The notes under the pieces are model-generated. The model worked only from the letters and a program-made list of their open reading frames with translations. It was not told the DNA's origin and ran no database searches. This document shows, one piece after another, positions 37,101 through 41,020 of a stretch of 64,000 nt of DNA. The DNA is taken from positions 128,001-192,000 of the IMG/VR virus record IMGVR_UViG_3300038679_000051; one strand, 5' to 3'. Origin of the DNA: a virus (taxonomy: Duplodnaviria; Caudoviricetes). Position 1 is the stretch's first letter, and the number at the start of each line of letters is the position of its first letter. Both the position numbers and the translations under genes were made by a program.

Positions 37101-38463
37101 TGATTGTTTCTTCCTTGCATTCCACACAACACAATGGTGAACAGTTGATGTCAATTTCTTTGCCTTGTATTTCACATGGGCATGGACAACCGATTTTCTT
37201 AGGTGGACTGAATGCACCAGCAACATCACATACGTCACCAACGTTTGCGCACAAAAACATATCTTCTTGACAACAAAATTCCTCTGGTCTTGGATTTTTC
37301 ATGATCTTGAAGGGTAATGTTTGTTCTTCTTGCCATTCAAATTTCGCCCAATCGAATCTAGATACGTCAATGCATGCTCTCTGTGGCGTCCATGCCGGTA
37401 GATTCAACACTGGCTCGACCGAATCCGTTGAGATGTATTCATTATAGACGATATATTTACATGTCTGGGTCGTCGGTTGTATTGCTACCCATTTGACTAG
37501 ATGATCTGAATATCCTGGCGACGATGGATTTTCGTGACAGATGATGACTGGTTTGAATGCCGTAGCTGGCGGTAGATATGTCGGTACAATACCCATGACG
37601 CACATTTCTTTAGAGATTGCATCGACCAAATAGAATAAGTTATTGCCGACGTCGCTCTTTCTCAAATTTTTAACTGCTTGATCTACGATCAGACTATCTA
37701 ATAATTGTTGGTCCTCGATGATCTGTAAGAAATTTAAACCATCAGGTCCGATTTCACCTTTTGGGCCAATTTGTCTGATCTTGAACGTCCACGAACCCTT
37801 CTCAAACGTTCCATAAATTGTTGCTTTGAACGTCTCATTCTCCCACGTTATGTCTTTGATCTCGACTTGTTGTCCGATTATTTCGACTACTTCCATGTCT
37901 TTGGTCAACAACATTTCGGTAACTTGATTTCTGTAATTATATAAACGAAGTGAAATGTTCGTCTCGATTGGTAACGTCAATGCCTTCTCGACCATCATTG
38001 ATGATGTGGTTAAATTTCTGGGTTTCAAATGCCTTTCTTTATAAGCCTTAATGCCAGATCTGCCTTGTTTGCCTTGTAGTCCAGCATCACCTTTGGGACC
38101 TACGCAGACGTTGCGCAATACTTTCTGATGCAATCTACTTCTATCAACCTCATATCTTAGGCTCTGTTGTGATTCAGGATAGAATCTAATCAAATCATCA
38201 GACGAATTAAAATAATAGAAATATGCCTGATTATTTTCAAATTTTACTGTTTTGCGTAAGTCATCTTTGTGGAATTCTATTTTTCTTTCCCGATCGAATA
38301 ATGTCGGATACACCAACCCATCATTCTCTACATCTACAATTCGTGGAATTTTCGTCGCGCCCTTGTTTATCCATGAATTAGATTCTATGTCAAATTCATG
38401 CAGTACGCCATAAACATCTATGACTTGGTCTTTGTCTTTGGCATTTGGCGGAAACATAATCAT
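34105..38463 (-). CDS. tail fibre / receptor-binding protein: collagen-like and Cys-rich N-part, poly-Ser stalks, Asp-box beta-propeller tip
   Basis: GPKGDAGLQG and GPKGEIGPDG; two Ser tracts; six SxD/NxGxxW Asp-box motifs at the C-terminus. Confidence 0.7.
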   Translation of the reverse strand: MIMFPPNAKDKDQVIDVYGVLHEFDIESNSWINKGATKIPRIVDVENDGLVYPTLFDRERKIEFHKDDLRKTVKFENNQAYFYYFNSSDDLIRFYPESQQSLRYEVDRSRLHQKVLRNVCVGPKGDAGLQGKQGRSGIKAYKERHLKPRNLTTSSMMVEKALTLPIETNISLRLYNYRNQVTEMLLTKDMEVVEIIGQQVEIKDITWENETFKATIYGTFEKGSWTFKIRQIGPKGEIGPDGLNFLQIIEDQQLLDSLIVDQAVKNLRKSDVGNNLFYLVDAISKEMCVMGIVPTYLPPATAFKPVIICHENPSSPGYSDHLVKWVAIQPTTQTCKYIVYNEYISTDSVEPVLNLPAWTPQRACIDVSRFDWAKFEWQEEQTLPFKIMKNPRPEEFCCQEDMFLCANVGDVCDVAGAFSPPKKIGCPCPCEIQGKEIDINCSPLCCVECKEETIRCIPPQECAINGDKQIATFKLNYDEWLDPACRKEDGSYKRGCCDDGEWIAFTVKVKSPTDKCDKERGDFLAAGGKFPSRCNAIMTAELLSATGLTPVYFEQRAKFFPIDTTHPTPFKYQEKMTYLKLPDIDAMKMPASLEWNQSRQQLSNWTDAQWNAYLNELYLNDKWVGDAIVAELMTRLKEVPVPTIGNETFKATILRPDGGLRELTFFLRIPKPSKFDTPNYQPWSGSALIKVQINYNQVDCCTGYELDVCTSIPCDAGSSSSSSSSSSSSSSSSSSSSSSSSSSSSSSSSSSSLSSSSSSSSSSMSSSSSSSSSMSSSSSSSSKSSSSSSSKSSSSSSSKSSSSSSSRSSSSSSSRSSSSSSSKSSSSSSSSKSSSSSSKSSSSSRSSSSSSKSSSSSSKSSSSSSLCSCTPTILASKTTHGGTDPIWDLTPYQGIGIATCGGYWRLIEIGACYPTVYPWYGAGCIDENNELLGLPAQFVSSYYYTGYMQLQIGCSESDDQTTIRWPGDCQPLTNISDFNDCGPIMILGGAFLQNIGDSWDLAQFLGNDIAEPNAFWRLIARDGFIFDYGCVDANGKLELLPNSFIADANLTEIRLEIGILSGSYINWPNKESQTPYLCWSSSSLSSSLSSSSSKSSKSSESSSFSSKSSSSSLSSSKSSSSSSRSSSSSRSSEYWTEARPAGNVDRHFTALAIDDDGQNLIAGAYGKRLYVSTNGGDIWSETQPNDTYQDLDWGDAASNSNGSQIVVISSKISGFTPTGRIYKSTNYGSSWSELRPIGDNDEYWASIASDSDGSNLIVCSDRVYISSDYGSNWSETTPTGTAEDKSWDDVASDSTGTNLMACVYGGRLYLSSDSGANWSEIFPPGGTPGNKNWDFVACSQNGQYMLAGIYGGRLYLSSDSGANWSEIFPPGGTPGNRNWRCGVIGGNAAIMMVGIYSSTTNGRIYCSTDGGTNWFEQRPLGNTNQAWSKLATDSVGDKMLASTTTRLYLHFG
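34335..34556. repeat. 84-bp direct repeat (34335-34418 and 34473-34556), one mismatch
   Basis: Both copies encode YGGRLYLSSDSGANWSEIFPPGGTPGN; period 138 nt. Confidence 0.9.
35869..36312 (-). repeat. low-complexity Ser-codon array (~148 codons)
   Basis: GATGAACTGGA/GACGAACTAGA-type units on the + strand; mixed TCN/AGT codons on the coding strand. Confidence 0.9.
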
Positions 38464-40193
38464 TCGACCACCTCCGCCGTCACCGTTAGATCATATCCAA
38501 TGCAGCACACAGTTTTATCTAGATTTACTTGTATATCTAATCTCATCGTCCCAGTTCCAATGATTATTATTGATGCATTACCCATGTCTGTTATTGCCAA
38601 TATTCCTTCGGGGTCTTGTGTCATCTCGTCTTCCAGACAGGTCGGTATTATGTTAGATCTTATTGAACATGGTTCTATTTTAAATTTTGTGTGCTCATCA
38701 CAGTAATTATTGTTATTCAATGCGATTGTTATTTTCGTTTTGGATTTATTTAAAATAATTTCTTGCCGATACTCGTGCATTTTCCCATTTATTGAACACT
38801 GATACGTATTCGATGTCGTTTCACCATCGAATATCATCAGGTCAGTTCTTGGTTGACAATCACACGGACATTCATCTGTTTCAAATCTGATGATTTTAGG
38901 CACATCGCCTTCTACTGGACATGAGTCGCCGACATTTGCGCACCAAAATAAGTCTTGTTGGCAACATTGTTCTGGTGGGCGTGGATCTTTTAATATGTTG
39001 AAAGGTATTACACCACCCTTTTCTTCTGCCTGGATGTCATCCTGCCAATCATATGTCGCTATTGGAAATCTTAGTCTATCAGCACATTGTTTCATTGGCG
39101 TCCAGAATGGTAAATTAAGCACTGGTTCGGATATTGCCGAAAGAGATAATGGCTTGATAGTGACAATGTCTTTACATTCCCTGGACGTCTCCAATATTGC
39201 TACCCATAATGCTCTCTCTACTATGTCAAGCGGTAGCCCATAAACCGGCGTCAAACCATAAACGCAGGATCCCTCAGTTACTGCTTGACGTTTATATAAT
39301 ATGTCTGAAGAAGTCGATGATTTCCTAACGTTTATCACTGCATTAGTAGAGACTATCCCTAGATCATCAATCCATTTTAATTTAGTTTGTAGAAAATTTA
39401 GCCCATTCGGCCCAGTTTCACCCTTTGGGCCGATTTGTCTGGTTTTAAAATAATGCTTGTCGTATGAACCTAACGACAACTTAATTGTTGCCTCGATCGT
39501 CCACACATCCTCAGTTTTCGCTATCTTTATTGTTGGATTTTCACTTATTATGGTGCTTTTAGTATAATTCTTTATGGTGATGTTGTCAGCGTTAGTGCCA
39601 TCCGTTTCAATTAATATCTCAGACGTTTTTATGTCATATTTGTTATATAATCGTATCGAAATAGGCGTATCAATTGGTATGTTGACGTCGACAGTGAATG
39701 TTGCCTCGACATTAGAAATGAATTTCGGTATGATTCGTCTTTCTTTAGGTGCCGACATACCTGGCCAACCCTGATCGCCCTCATATCCAACATCTCCCCG
39801 TTCCCCGACACATACGTTCCTGAGGATTTTTTGATATAATCTACCTCTATCGACTTCACATCGCAATGTCTCTCGTGTCTCACCATAAAATCTTATTAAA
39901 TCATCTGACGAATTAAAATAATAAAAATATGATGGCATCATTATTTCAGTCTGGAATTTGATCAAATTTAATTGATTTTTATACTTATTGATCAATAAAA
40001 TTCTATCATATAATTTAGGATATATTAATCCATTGGTTTCTTCGTTGACATTAGGCGGTGTTTTGATTACCCCTTTATTGATAAAGGAATCTGATTTCTT
40101 ATTATATTCATATATCACCCCTTCGCTATCAGCGTATTGCCCACCATCGATGAGGTTTCCATCAAATGGTGGAAGTTTGCATGATTTGGCCAT
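38460..40193 (-). CDS. virion fibre-associated protein, paralog of the N-terminal half of 34105..38463
   Basis: Shared YFYYFNSSDDLIRFY, LRNVCVG, QIGPKGExGPxGLNFLQ, EPVLNLP.WTP, CCQxDxFxCANVGD. Confidence 0.7.
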   Translation of the reverse strand: MAKSCKLPPFDGNLIDGGQYADSEGVIYEYNKKSDSFINKGVIKTPPNVNEETNGLIYPKLYDRILLINKYKNQLNLIKFQTEIMMPSYFYYFNSSDDLIRFYGETRETLRCEVDRGRLYQKILRNVCVGERGDVGYEGDQGWPGMSAPKERRIIPKFISNVEATFTVDVNIPIDTPISIRLYNKYDIKTSEILIETDGTNADNITIKNYTKSTIISENPTIKIAKTEDVWTIEATIKLSLGSYDKHYFKTRQIGPKGETGPNGLNFLQTKLKWIDDLGIVSTNAVINVRKSSTSSDILYKRQAVTEGSCVYGLTPVYGLPLDIVERALWVAILETSRECKDIVTIKPLSLSAISEPVLNLPFWTPMKQCADRLRFPIATYDWQDDIQAEEKGGVIPFNILKDPRPPEQCCQQDLFWCANVGDSCPVEGDVPKIIRFETDECPCDCQPRTDLMIFDGETTSNTYQCSINGKMHEYRQEIILNKSKTKITIALNNNNYCDEHTKFKIEPCSIRSNIIPTCLEDEMTQDPEGILAITDMGNASIIIIGTGTMRLDIQVNLDKTVCCIGYDLTVTAEVVE

Positions 40194-40378
40194 ACAGTTT
40201 TCCTCTTCCTATATATATATTTCCATCTGCGTTTAGATTTTCATCTTATTCAATATAGACCATCTCCTACCATCTGCGTCCCATAGGGCAAGCCAATAAA
40301 TCACAAAACAACCATGATTTTGGTTAATGCATTATGGGTATACCATAAAATAAATCACAATAATCATTTAGCACCAAG

Positions 40379-40811
40379 CAGCATAATGATAAATATGCTG
40401 GGCTTTTCCCAATCACATTGGCTAAATGTGATTGATTGTATGCCTTAATTGCTAAATGATTACATGGTTTTATGGTATGCAGATGTTTAAATCTTAAAAA
40501 ATCACCCAATGTCTTGCATAGGATGATTTTACCGGTGGAGGCCCATCTGCCCACATGTTTCTTGGGAAACATATGGAAGGAGAAACATCCTCCCGTCCGC
40601 GCATTACGCGCAGGGCGCTTTTCATGGCCAGGCTGTAAGATGGTTAGACTCACCTGGGGGCCTCTGTCCCACACTGGGTTTCTCCCGTCCTTTGGTCCGG
40701 GGTCTGCGTATCGTGCAGATGACGTGCCGTTCTCCCGTCGGTTTTTCGACCACATGGTCATGGTGAACCAATGATGATGCATTCGATTACGGCGTCTCAT
40801 CATCATTATTC
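40379..40811. ncRNA. candidate structured non-coding element (RNA or origin), family unknown
   Basis: GC-rich island in an AT-rich genome with many stems (40410-19/40425-34; 40551-61/40566-76; 40537-44/40658-65; 40770-79/40798-807) and 3x CTCCCGTC. Strand unknown. Confidence 0.45.
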
Positions 40812-40823
40812 GATTTAAACCAT

Positions 40824-40951
40824 TTTTAATCTTTTAATCTTTTAATCTTTTAATCTTTTAATCTTTTAATCTTTTAATCTTTTAATCTTTTAATCTTTTA
40901 ATCTTTTAATCTTTTAATCTTTTAATCTTTTAATCTTTTAATCTTTTAATC
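40824..40951. repeat. perfect tandem repeat (TTTTAATC)x16
   Basis: Counted directly: 128 bp, no spacers. Confidence 0.97.
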
Positions 40952-41020
40952 ATCTCTCATCTCTGAATCTTCAATACTTAAATATTAGCAAAAATAAAAT
41001 GATGAAAAGGAGAAAAGAAA

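What the first reader, a model, noticed from the sequence alone, without database searches (positions are those of the whole stretch)
40379..40811. GC-rich, multi-stem non-coding element with three CTCCCGTC motifs at the strand switch
Seen: this is the only long gene-free stretch. It is visibly GC-rich (40530-40760) and carries several hairpins, a long-range pairing (40537-44 with 40658-65), and CTCCCGTC at 40590, 40682 and 40732 (GACGGGAG on the minus strand). I recognise no tRNA, tmRNA, RNase P or SRP hallmarks. Hypotheses (inference): (i) a novel structured ncRNA; (ii) if plus-strand, the CUCCC repeats are anti-SD seeds able to silence SD-led mRNAs while the leaderless replication genes escape; (iii) if minus-strand, GGGAG repeats act as a CsrA-type sponge; (iv) origin-binding sites next to the AT-rich repeat.
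Basis: partly seen in the sequence, partly recalled or inferred. Interest (0 to 1): 0.7.

Follow-up and report, generated by a model that had tools for sequence, protein, structure and literature searches.

The report
New large structured RNA in giant phage
The GC-rich gap in this 320-kb uncultured phage is the 5' half of a roughly 600-base folded RNA on the minus strand; it matches no known RNA family, recurs in two other uncultured phage lineages, and its function is unknown.

Summary

The real unit is larger, about 40230-40826, and most likely reads on the minus strand. Homologous non-coding stretches exist in two other lineages of uncultured phages: L184 with three near-identical strains, and L029.

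A fold predicted from the window alone was tested on L184. Of 50 pairs changed on both sides, 42 still pair, against 43% in slid controls (Fisher p 7e-8). The minus strand folds better than shuffles in all three lineages; the plus strand does not.

It is not coding: substitutions show no codon periodicity and 11 of 12 indels break frame. Rfam 15 and ARAGORN find nothing.

The exact CTCCCGTC 8-mer is not conserved, and two of the three copies (motifs 2 and 3) overlap helix strands, while motif 1 lies in an unpaired junction. So the anti-SD and CsrA-sponge ideas fail. An origin role cannot be excluded.

Verdict: a new family of large structured phage RNA. That it is a structured RNA is well supported; its function is inferred only. 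Another first-stage note of this scan flagged the same stretch of this genome, read in another window (e1-5404511).

The parts
40230..40826 (-). Whole conserved structured element, the proposed RNA of about 600 nt. Its 5' end lies near 40822-40826 and its last conserved block ends at 40255.
   Evidence: Homologous to L184:603-1215 and L029:about 575-1392. CM R1 scores are 377 bits for the window, 397 for L184 and 69 for L029. Covariation is shown.
40530..40826 (-). 5' domain, GC-rich (53% GC): helices P1, P2, P4-P9 and Px around a multi-way junction closed by P7
   Evidence: Minus-strand fold z is -2.8 against -1.3 for the plus strand.
40770..40807 (-). P1 hairpin. The stem is AAUGAUGAUG/CAUCAUCAUU and the conserved loop core is GCCGUAAUCGAA (40782-40793).
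   Evidence: The stem is wholly different in L184 (AGGGACGGGU/ACCCGUUCCU) and L029 (GGGAGCGGCG/CGCCGCCCCC), while the loop GUAAUC(G/A)AA is kept.
40739..40770 (-). P2 helix, UGGUU with AACCG. It encloses an inner hairpin specific to this phage.
   Evidence: GGUU/AACC in the window and L029, GGCU/AGCC in L184.
40684..40701 (-). P5 helix (CCCG/CGGG) closing the conserved loop GACCAAAGGA. CTCCCGTC copy 2 (40682-40689) overlaps its 3' strand.
   Evidence: L029 has UCGG/CCGA.
40538..40664 (-). P7 long-range helix, GAGGCCC (40658-40664) with GGGCCUC (40538-40544).
   Evidence: Present in all three lineages. The last pair is C-G in the window and A-U in L029.
40628..40657 (-). P7b hairpin (CCAGGU/GCCUGG) with an 18-nt conserved loop GAGUCUAACCAUCUUACA
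   Evidence: A-U changes to G-C in L029. The loop is nearly invariant between the window and L184.
40597..40613 (-). Px hairpin (CUGCGC/GCGCGG) with a variable loop
   Evidence: The loop is 5 nt in the window, 9 nt in L184 and a 94-nt insertion in L029.
40578..40594 (-). P8 hairpin (GGGAGG/UCUCCU). CTCCCGTC copy 3 (40590-40597) supplies its 5' strand.
   Evidence: GGGGAA/UUCCUC in L184 and AGGGAG/CUCCCU in L029.
40551..40576 (-). P9 hairpin, 11 bp, with loop CCAA
   Evidence: The stem covaries in L184 and L029 and the loop CCAAG is kept. Its G-U pairs would be C-A mismatches on the plus strand.
40501..40527 (-). P10 hairpin with loop CAAGA, the first helix of the 3' domain
   Evidence: Three pairs are changed on both sides between the window and L184.
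40341..40477 (-). Long-range 9-bp helix of the AT-rich 3' domain, UACCAUAAA (40469-40477) with UUUAUGGUA (40341-40349). It encloses the hairpin 40410-40434.
   Evidence: L184 has AGUAGUAGG/UCUACUACU, with 6 of 9 pairs changed on both sides. The inner hairpin has 7 of 8 pairs changed on both sides.
40255..40282 (-). 3' conserved block GGGACGCAGAUGGUAGGAGAUGGUCUAU, the last conserved part, 62 nt before the start codon of the 577-aa gene
   Evidence: Conserved in all three lineages.
40543..40550 (-). GCAGAUGG box. Further copies lie at 40270-40277 and 40223-40230.
   Evidence: The two boxes shared by all lineages change together: GCAGAUG in the window, GCAGACG in L184, GCGGAU in L029. Pairing with the P7b loop is not significant.
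40732..40739 (+). CTCCCGTC copy 1. The other copies lie at 40682-40689 and 40590-40597. On the RNA strand it reads GACGGGAG.
   Evidence: Confirmed. Not conserved as an 8-mer in L184 or L029.
40824..40951 (.). (TTTTAATC)x16 perfect tandem array directly upstream of the RNA's 5' end. It is a neighbour, not a conserved part.
   Evidence: Found. Absent at the same place in the L184 lineage and L029. A Logan contig of the same phage starts inside it.
38460..40193 (-). 577-aa gene directly downstream on the same strand, followed by a 1452-aa gene
   Evidence: Its 58%-identical homologue P0133 lies downstream of the element in L184.

Best explanation
The intergenic region encodes a large structured RNA of about 600 nt with two domains. 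It belongs to a family not described before and is read from the minus strand, running from about 40826 to about 40230.

**Anatomy**
- The 5' domain is the GC-rich island. It is a multi-way junction closed by the long-range helix P7 and carries hairpins whose stems covary while their loops stay constant.
- The 3' domain is AT-rich in this phage and GC-rich in L184, yet it keeps the same helices through compensatory changes.
- There is one copy per genome. It always lies on the strand opposite the volactin-DnaE replication operon, within about 0.1-2 kb of the point where the two gene blocks diverge.
- In two of three lineages it sits directly in front of large genes on the same strand: the 577-aa gene and its homologue, with an Ig-like 587-aa gene in L184.

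**Proposed mechanism (inferred, not shown)**
- It acts as a folded RNA in its own right, a scaffold or binding partner for a phage or host protein. The contacts would be the invariant loops (GUAAUCGAA, GACCAAAGGA, the 18-nt P7b loop, CCAAG) and the GCAGAUGG boxes.
- It is not a base-pairing antisense RNA or a sponge.
- It is made at the head of the leftward gene block.

**What is shown**
- Conservation, covariation, non-coding status, single copy, position, and no Rfam match.

**What is inferred**
- Transcription, the strand (supported by two computational tests), the ends, and any partner.
For: **Homologues in two other lineages**
- L029, from an NCBI MAG contig, was found through the volactin neighbour.
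- L184, with strains L191, L192 and L194 at 97-99% identity, was found through the 577-aa and 264-aa neighbours.

**Blind covariation test**
- The minimum-energy fold of the window's sequence alone was mapped onto L184, which is 60% identical. It keeps 42 of 50 pairs changed on both sides, against 107 of 247 in slid controls (Fisher p 7e-8).
- The reciprocal test keeps 38 of 46 (p 9e-7).

**Pair counts by domain**
- 5' domain, three lineages: 93% of cells paired and 20 of 62 pairs changed on both sides, against 2-7 in slid versions.
- 3' domain, window against L184: 47 pairs, all paired, 21 changed on both sides, against 0-4 in slid versions.

**Strand**
- Fold z-scores for window, L184 and L029 are -2.8, -2.3 and -3.6 on the minus strand, against -1.3, -1.4 and -0.9 on the plus strand.
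- Eight hand-defined helices hold 13 G-U pairs and 4 mismatches on the minus strand, against 1 G-U and 16 mismatches on the plus strand.

**Not coding**
- Mismatches by codon position are 78/72/82, and 11 of 12 indels are not multiples of three.
- Both ORF translations look unlike protein and match no PHROG.

**Other support**
- No Rfam 15 family, tRNA or tmRNA matches in any lineage.
- There is a single copy in the genome.
- The Px hairpin varies in length (5-nt, 9-nt and 94-nt loops), which is typical of structured RNAs.
- Long GC-rich intergenic regions are an established marker of structured ncRNAs (PMC8723152, PMC6429828).
Against: - There is no transcription data.
- Only three independent lineages are known, and the L184 strains are near-identical.
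- For L029 the automated blind test is not significant, because the alignment is only 49% identical and has large insertions. Only hand-defined 5'-domain helices support it there.
- The hand-defined helices were chosen with the minus strand in view, so the G-U count is biased. The z-score test is independent but modest.
- Watson-Crick compensation alone cannot tell RNA from single-stranded DNA hairpins.
- No promoter or terminator is identified. In the window and in L184 no terminator separates the element from the next gene, so it could simply be a 5' leader.
- No homologue was found in two complete related jumbo phages or in about 150 volactin loci, so the family is narrow.
- No partner protein or target is known.
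Confidence: 0.6

Rival explanations
1. The element is a cis-acting 5' leader of the leftward block of large genes. The folded RNA is the untranslated start of that long transcript. It controls the transcript by processive antitermination, by stabilising it, or by gating translation of the first gene.
For: - In the window the last conserved block ends 62 nt before the 577-aa start codon. In the L184 lineage it ends about 40 nt before the 587-aa Ig-like gene.
- In both cases the gene is on the same strand and no terminator lies between.
- The downstream genes are very long (577 and 1452 aa; 587 and 982 aa).
- A third GCAGAUGG box lies 30 nt before the start codon in the window.
Against: - In L029 nothing follows on the same strand. 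The next gene is convergent and looks real, yet the RNA is conserved.
- The first downstream gene differs between the window and L184.
- About 600 nt with long-range helices is far larger than known antitermination or leader elements.
- The third box is absent from L184.
Confidence: 0.25
2. The element is an origin-associated RNA. The structured transcript forms a persistent hybrid and primes, or licenses, leftward DNA synthesis, as ColE1 RNA II and the phage T4 oriF/oriG R-loops do. The AT-rich array would serve as the unwinding element.
For: - The genome-wide cumulative GC-skew minimum is at genome 168977, which is window 40977, 150 bp from the RNA's 5' end.
- The element lies next to the replication operon (volactin and DnaE pieces).
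- Its length is close to the roughly 550 nt of RNA II (from established knowledge).
- A 128-bp array with 12.5% GC adjoins it.
Against: - The skew minimum coincides exactly with the switch in gene direction, so transcription bias alone explains it.
- The array is absent in L184 and L029.
- In the L184 lineage two genes (268 and 264 aa) separate the RNA from the divergence point.
- No antisense regulator and no G-rich or C-rich hybrid-forming tract was seen.
Confidence: 0.1
3. The element works at the DNA level only. It would be a cluster of protein-binding sites (CCATCTGC boxes, CTCCCGTC motifs) and cruciform-forming inverted repeats, with no functional RNA.
For: - CCATCTGC occurs three times in the same orientation (40223, 40270, 40543).
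- The two boxes shared with relatives change in concert (ATCTGC in the window, GTCTGC in L184, ATCCGC in L029), as co-evolving binding sites would.
- CTCCCGTC is over-represented.
Against: - Dozens of compensatory changes preserve long-range helices that are 113 to 131 nt apart, which duplex DNA sites do not need.
- The G-U asymmetry and fold z-scores favour one strand.
- CTCCCGTC is not conserved.
Confidence: 0.04
4. The stretch is a protein-coding gene, either the 160-aa minus-strand ORF 40324-40806 or the 100-aa plus-strand ORF 40472-40774.
For: Both frames are open in the window. tblastn gives weak matches to L184 and L029.
Against: - The tblastn matches are split across frames and occur for both strands, as expected from nucleotide conservation alone.
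- Substitutions show no codon periodicity (78/72/82).
- 11 of 12 indels break frame.
- The longest open stretches in L184 and L029 are 104 and 109 codons.
- The translations are rich in R, H, W and C and match no PHROG.
Confidence: 0.01

Closest known systems
GOLLD and ROOL large structured RNAs of phages and prophages (Weinberg et al. 2017, PMC5737381; cryo-EM in 10.1101/2024.12.08.627333)
   Same: - They are RNAs of 500 nt or more with several domains, found in phage or prophage DNA.
- They are conserved through covariation.
- They were discovered from sequence alone, with no known function.
   Different: - Their Rfam models give no match in any of the three lineages here.
- This element is not next to tRNA genes; there are none in the window.
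- It is known from only three lineages of uncultured jumbo phages.
- Self-assembly into multimers was not tested.
ColE1 RNA II pre-primer and phage T4 oriF/oriG R-loop origins (from established knowledge)
   Same: - Each is a structured transcript of similar length.
- Each lies beside replication functions, here at a skew minimum, and could prime DNA synthesis in the direction of transcription.
   Different: - No origin is demonstrated here.
- No antisense RNA I counterpart was found.
- The AT-rich array is not conserved.
- The position relative to the divergence point varies between lineages.
Processive-antitermination leader RNAs (HK022 put, EAR; from established knowledge)
   Same: Each sits on the same strand at the head of a long operon of late or structural genes.
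   Different: - Those elements are about 70-120 nt with two hairpins, whereas this is about 600 nt with long-range helices.
- L029 keeps the RNA without any downstream gene on its strand.
CsrB/RsmZ-type protein sponges
   Same: The RNA strand carries repeated GGGAG or GGA-containing purine-rich motifs.
   Different: - There are only three copies.
- Two overlap helix strands rather than hairpin loops.
- The motif is not kept in the relatives: GACGGUAG, GACGAGGG and GACGGGGA in L184; GACGAUAG, GACCGAGU and GACAGGGA in L029.
phi29 pRNA (from established knowledge)
   Same: It is a phage-encoded structured RNA that acts as an RNA. Its conserved loops make specific contacts.
   Different: - pRNA is about 170 nt, lies at the genome end of small podoviruses, and works in DNA packaging.
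- There is no sequence or Rfam match.
- The loop-box complementarity seen here is not above chance.

Membership tests
Any Rfam 15 family (4227 models, including RNase P, SRP, 6S, tmRNA, GOLLD, ROOL, OLE, HEARO, riboswitches, ribozymes, group I and II introns) | A covariance-model match at or near the family's gathering score | tested here: not met
   No match at gathering score in the window. Permissive scans of the region (E up to 10) and of L184 and L029 (E up to 5) gave only chance-level hits to eukaryotic or archaeal snoRNA and miRNA models and one Staphylococcus sRNA model (sau-6072), all far below gathering score.
tRNA / tmRNA | A cloverleaf or tRNA-like domain with a tag reading frame | tested here: not met
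   ARAGORN finds 0 genes in the 64-kb window.
Structured non-coding RNA (generic) | Base pairs maintained by compensatory substitutions across homologues | tested here: met
   42 of 50 and 38 of 46 double-changed pairs are kept, against about 43% in controls. 20 of 62 and 21 of 47 pairs are changed on both sides.
Structured non-coding RNA (generic) | Not protein-coding | tested here: met
   There is no codon periodicity, the indels break frame, and there is no family match.
Structured non-coding RNA (generic) | Transcribed, with defined ends and strand | not testable with these tools
The strand is inferred from fold z-scores and G-U asymmetry only.
CsrB/RsmZ-type sponge | Many conserved GGA motifs displayed in hairpin loops | tested here: not met
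   There are three GGGAG copies, two of them overlapping helix strands, and they are not conserved in L184 or L029.
Anti-Shine-Dalgarno regulatory RNA (plus strand) | Functional strand is the plus strand, with conserved single-stranded CUCCC seeds | tested here: not met
   The plus strand folds no better than shuffles in all three lineages. The 8-mers are not conserved.
Replication origin with iterons | Conserved direct repeats and an AT-rich unwinding element at the site of initiation | tested here: inconclusive
   The skew minimum is at 40977 but is confounded with gene direction. The TTTTAATC array is not conserved. The CCATCTGC boxes are repeated and change in concert.
ColE1 RNA II-like primer | Persistent RNA-DNA hybrid at the origin, RNase H processing, and an antisense regulator | not testable with these tools
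   This needs replication-intermediate and transcript mapping.
GOLLD / ROOL | Homo-oligomeric RNA-only assembly (10.1101/2024.12.08.627333) | not tested
   This needs in-vitro transcription followed by native gels or cryo-EM.

The most novel reading that the evidence does not exclude
This is the first member of a new class of large phage RNA (0.6-0.9 kb) that has a defined tertiary fold. It would work on its own or in an RNP, for example as a self-assembling scaffold or as a catalytic or protein-organising RNA, during the switch from replication to virion-gene expression in huge phages. The invariant loops and the co-varying GCAGAUGG boxes would be its contact points.
Probability: 0.25. Interest if true: 0.85.

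Novelty: categorically new. Interest (0 to 1): 0.62.

Why it matters
- **Rarity.** Natural RNAs above about 500 nt with conserved, complex folds are rare. Almost every such class studied so far (ribosomal RNA, RNase P, group I and II introns, OLE, GOLLD, ROOL) has revealed unusual biochemistry or architecture.
- **Setting.** This candidate comes from a 320-kb uncultured phage, a group whose non-coding content is almost unexplored.
- **Location.** It sits at the junction between the replication module and the genes for large, probably structural, proteins. It may therefore bear on how huge phages organise their infection cycle.
- **Readiness for experiments.** The covariation already seen is strong enough to justify RNA-seq, chemical probing and cryo-EM.
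- **Limits.** Only three lineages are known, there is no expression data, and the function is unknown.

Tried and rejected
**Homologue searches that gave nothing**
- blastn of the region against 50,697 GenBank phages.
- Single-protein locus searches in IMG/VR with three neighbour proteins.
- A three-copy CTCCCGTC pattern scan of IMG/VR gave 27 loci. None is homologous by blastn (no hit better than E 0.17); several carry the pattern many times in tandem, so repetitive sequence is the likely source, which I did not check.
- Three conserved-block pattern scans of IMG/VR and two of GTDB genomes found no homologue. The single hit, L190, lies inside a 634-aa open reading frame (open at its 5' end) on a contig titled as an Anaerolineae MAG and is chance.
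- nhmmer and CM R1 over about 85 volactin loci, blastn over the later volactin loci and CM R1 over the whole records of five related jumbo phages, two of them complete, found nothing beyond L029 and the L184 lineage.
- Several ENA and Logan contigs that should carry the element have no retrievable DNA.

- A model of the 3' domain could not be calibrated within the time limit. A shorter sub-alignment misaligned.

**Ideas tested and dropped**
- A pseudoknot between the P7b loop and the GCAGAUGG boxes: duplex energies are not better than with shuffled loops (p 0.05-0.28).
- Targets elsewhere in the genome complementary to the conserved loops: none found.
- A shared promoter motif from k-mer enrichment upstream of genes: no clear motif.
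- The sigma-70 and terminator scan shows nothing above shuffles. The two terminator-like sites are internal helices.
- Coding ORFs were rejected.

**Weak result**
- The blind covariation test against L029 is not significant, because the alignment is too poor.

Full report
**Setting.**
- The window is bases 128001-192000 of a complete 320,399-bp phage record with direct terminal repeats.
- Genes left of about 40200 run on the minus strand: a 577-aa gene and then a 1452-aa gene.
- Genes right of 41021 run on the plus strand: 121 aa, 93 aa, a volactin-type actin (PF25216), 139 aa, then pieces of DnaE.
- The 827 bp between them hold the finding.

**Observation.**
- GC reaches 51-60% over 40520-40800, against about 38% for the window.
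- CTCCCGTC occurs at 40590, 40682 and 40732. That is four copies in the window against 0.53 expected.
- A perfect (TTTTAATC)x16 array follows at 40824-40951.
- ARAGORN finds no tRNA or tmRNA. Rfam 15 finds nothing at gathering score and only chance-level matches in the permissive scan.
- The genome-wide minimum of cumulative GC skew is at window 40977, which is also where gene direction switches.

**Finding relatives.**
- DNA searches and single-protein locus searches gave nothing.
- The volactin neighbour has many relatives.
- The contig of a 68%-identical volactin (L029, from an NCBI MAG) has a 920-bp gene-free stretch. Its core matches window 40628-40698 at 76% identity, more than the roughly 65% of the flanking coding DNA.
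- A 58%-identical homologue of the 577-aa protein led to L184. Its upstream gap matches window 40532-40746 at 73% and 40255-40299 at 83%.
- A neighbouring 264-aa protein then gave three more strains of the L184 lineage, 97-99% identical across the whole gap.
- Global alignments show that homology spans window 40230-40826, not just the GC-rich part.
- No further homologue was found in about 150 volactin loci, in five related jumbo-phage records (two of them complete), or in any pattern scan. The one pattern hit is a chance match inside an open reading frame on a bacterial MAG contig.
- The element is single-copy in its own genome.

**It is a conserved fold, not a gene.**
- I took the minimum-energy fold of the window's sequence alone and mapped it onto L184 through a plain MAFFT alignment (60% identity).
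  - Of 50 pairs in which both partners differ, 42 still pair.
  - With the 3' partner slid by 1-3 columns, 107 of 247 pair (Fisher p 7e-8).
  - The reciprocal test gives 38 of 46 (p 9e-7).
- In the 5' domain across three lineages, 93% of cells pair and 20 of 62 pairs changed on both sides, against 2-7 when slid.
- In the 3' domain the window is 33% GC, yet the window and L184 share 47 pairs, all paired in both, with 21 changed on both sides, against 0-4 when slid. These include:
  - a 9-bp helix spanning about 120 nt (UACCAUAAA/UUUAUGGUA against AGUAGUAGG/UCUACUACU);
  - a hairpin with 7 of 8 pairs replaced.
- Stems change while loops stay the same: GUAAUCGAA in P1, GACCAAAGGA in P5, an 18-nt loop in P7b, CCAAG in P9.
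- One hairpin (Px) has a loop of 5 nt, 9 nt or 94 nt, depending on the lineage.
- Coding is excluded:
  - mismatches fall 78/72/82 by codon position;
  - 11 of 12 indels break frame;
  - both ORF translations are unlike protein and match no family.
- **Caveat.** For L029 the automated blind test is not significant, because the alignment is poor. Its support rests on hand-defined helices of the 5' domain.

**Strand.**
- Watson-Crick compensation is symmetric between strands, so I used two other tests.
- Against dinucleotide shuffles, the minus strand of the 5' domain has z of -2.8 (window), -2.3 (L184) and -3.6 (L029). The plus strand has -1.3, -1.4 and -0.9.
- In eight helices the minus strand shows 13 G-U pairs and 4 mismatches. 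The same positions on the plus strand give 1 G-U and 16 mismatches. This count is biased by how I chose the helices.
- In every lineage the neighbours on one or both sides run on this same strand.
- I take the minus strand as the RNA strand, with moderate confidence.

**Anatomy on the RNA strand.**
- Conserved 5' block GGUUUAAAUC: 40812-40821.
- P1: 40770-40807.
- P2: 40739-40770.
- Variable hairpin P4: 40703-40719.
- P5 with its loop: 40684-40701.
- P6: 40668-40678.
- Long-range P7: 40658-40664 with 40538-40544. It closes a junction holding P7b (40628-40657), Px (40597-40613), P8 (40578-40594) and P9 (40551-40576).
- 3' domain: P10 (40501-40527), the long-range helix 40469-40477 with 40341-40349, and its inner hairpin (40410-40434).
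- 3' conserved block: 40255-40282.

**The CTCCCGTC copies.**
- On the RNA strand the three copies read GACGGGAG. One lies in a junction, one overlaps the 3' strand of P5, and one forms the 5' strand of P8.
- At these places L184 has GACGGUAG, GACGAGGG and GACGGGGA. L029 has GACGAUAG, GACCGAGU and GACAGGGA.
- So the exact repeat is peculiar to this phage. What is shared is GAC plus a purine-rich tail.

**The GCAGAUGG boxes.**
- The window has three copies. Two are shared with the relatives, one before the 3' strand of P7 and one in the 3' block.
- Both shared copies read GCAGAUG in the window, GCAGACG in L184 and GCGGAU in L029.
- This suggests a common partner, but pairing with the P7b loop is not better than chance.

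**Context and function.**
- Window: array, RNA, 577-aa gene, 1452-aa gene.
- L184 lineage: volactin operon on the other strand, then a 268-aa gene, a 264-aa gene, a 310-nt spacer, the RNA, an Ig-like 587-aa gene, and the 982-aa homologue of the 577-aa protein.
- L029: volactin operon, a 97-aa membrane-protein gene, the RNA, then a convergent gene.
- The constant features are the strand (opposite the replication operon) and closeness to the divergence point. The downstream gene is not constant, and in L029 there is none.
- This favours an RNA that works on its own over a leader tied to one cistron. The leader reading still fits two of three lineages.
- The origin reading rests on a skew minimum that gene direction alone explains, and on an array that the relatives lack.
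- I therefore rank the readings as follows:
  - an autonomous folded RNA that binds a partner through its invariant loops and boxes: the structured-RNA claim about 0.8, this mechanism about 0.35-0.4;
  - a cis-acting leader: about 0.25;
  - an origin RNA: about 0.1;
  - DNA-level sites only, or coding: unlikely.

**Comparison and verdict.**
- Nothing in Rfam 15 matches in any lineage.
- In kind it resembles GOLLD and ROOL, which are large, ornate, phage-linked RNAs of unknown function (PMC5737381; 10.1101/2024.12.08.627333). It is not a member of either.
- Its discovery follows the known rule that long GC-rich intergenic regions are enriched in structured RNAs (PMC8723152, PMC6429828).
- It is best filed as a new RNA family with three known lineages, without expression data, and with its function open.

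Noticed in passing
window 40824-40951: The perfect (TTTTAATC)x16 array is not conserved. The L184 lineage has a 310-nt GC-rich spacer at that place, and L029 has a small gene. A Logan contig of the same phage (L031) begins inside the array at 40922, so the copy number may be an assembly estimate.
   Followed up: partly
L184:291-602 (also L191:2911-3222 and L192:2278-2588): The L184 lineage has an extra 310-nt non-coding stretch upstream of the RNA. It holds GTCCTTTGGTCCGGG (L184:407-421), the exact reverse complement of the window's P5 loop region (CCCGGACCAAAGGAC), and matches its own P5 region at 12 of 15 positions. It could be a 5' extension that pairs with P5.
   Followed up: partly
L029:1422-1715 (minus strand): This is a 97-aa ORF with a nine-base repeat (TTTTTTCCG x5 on the plus strand) that encodes (NGK)n, and with a hydrophobic C-terminal tail. 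It lies directly upstream of the RNA in L029. The repeat first looked like a counterpart of the window's 8-mer array but is coding.
   Followed up: partly
L182:110-916 and L191:1298-2910: Two paralogous genes (268 and 264 aa, 66% identical) sit between the volactin operon and the RNA in the L184 lineage. A 54%-identical copy exists in the MAG assembly that holds L029. The window's phage has no such genes at this place.
   Followed up: no
genome 120790-120990 (about 7 kb left of the window start): This is the most GC-rich 200 bp of the genome (69% GC). It is a C-rich tract on the plus strand (GCCCCGTCCCGCCCGTCCCGTCCCCCGCCCC...) with no long ORF across it, so it is G-rich on the minus strand.
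   Followed up: no
window 40219-40255 and L184:1190-1215: A short conserved stretch, A(A/G)ATGAAAA(T/G)(C/A)TAAA, lies between the RNA's last block and the next gene's ribosome-binding site in both the window and the L184 lineage. It reads as a three-codon mini-ORF (ATG AAA NNN TAA) and is absent in L029.
   Followed up: no
L029:7854-9056: A TnpB/IS605 OrfB-type gene (Cas12f-like TNB domain) and a Mom-domain gene (L029:5077-6768) lie a few kb downstream of the volactin-DnaE block in the L029 phage.
   Followed up: no
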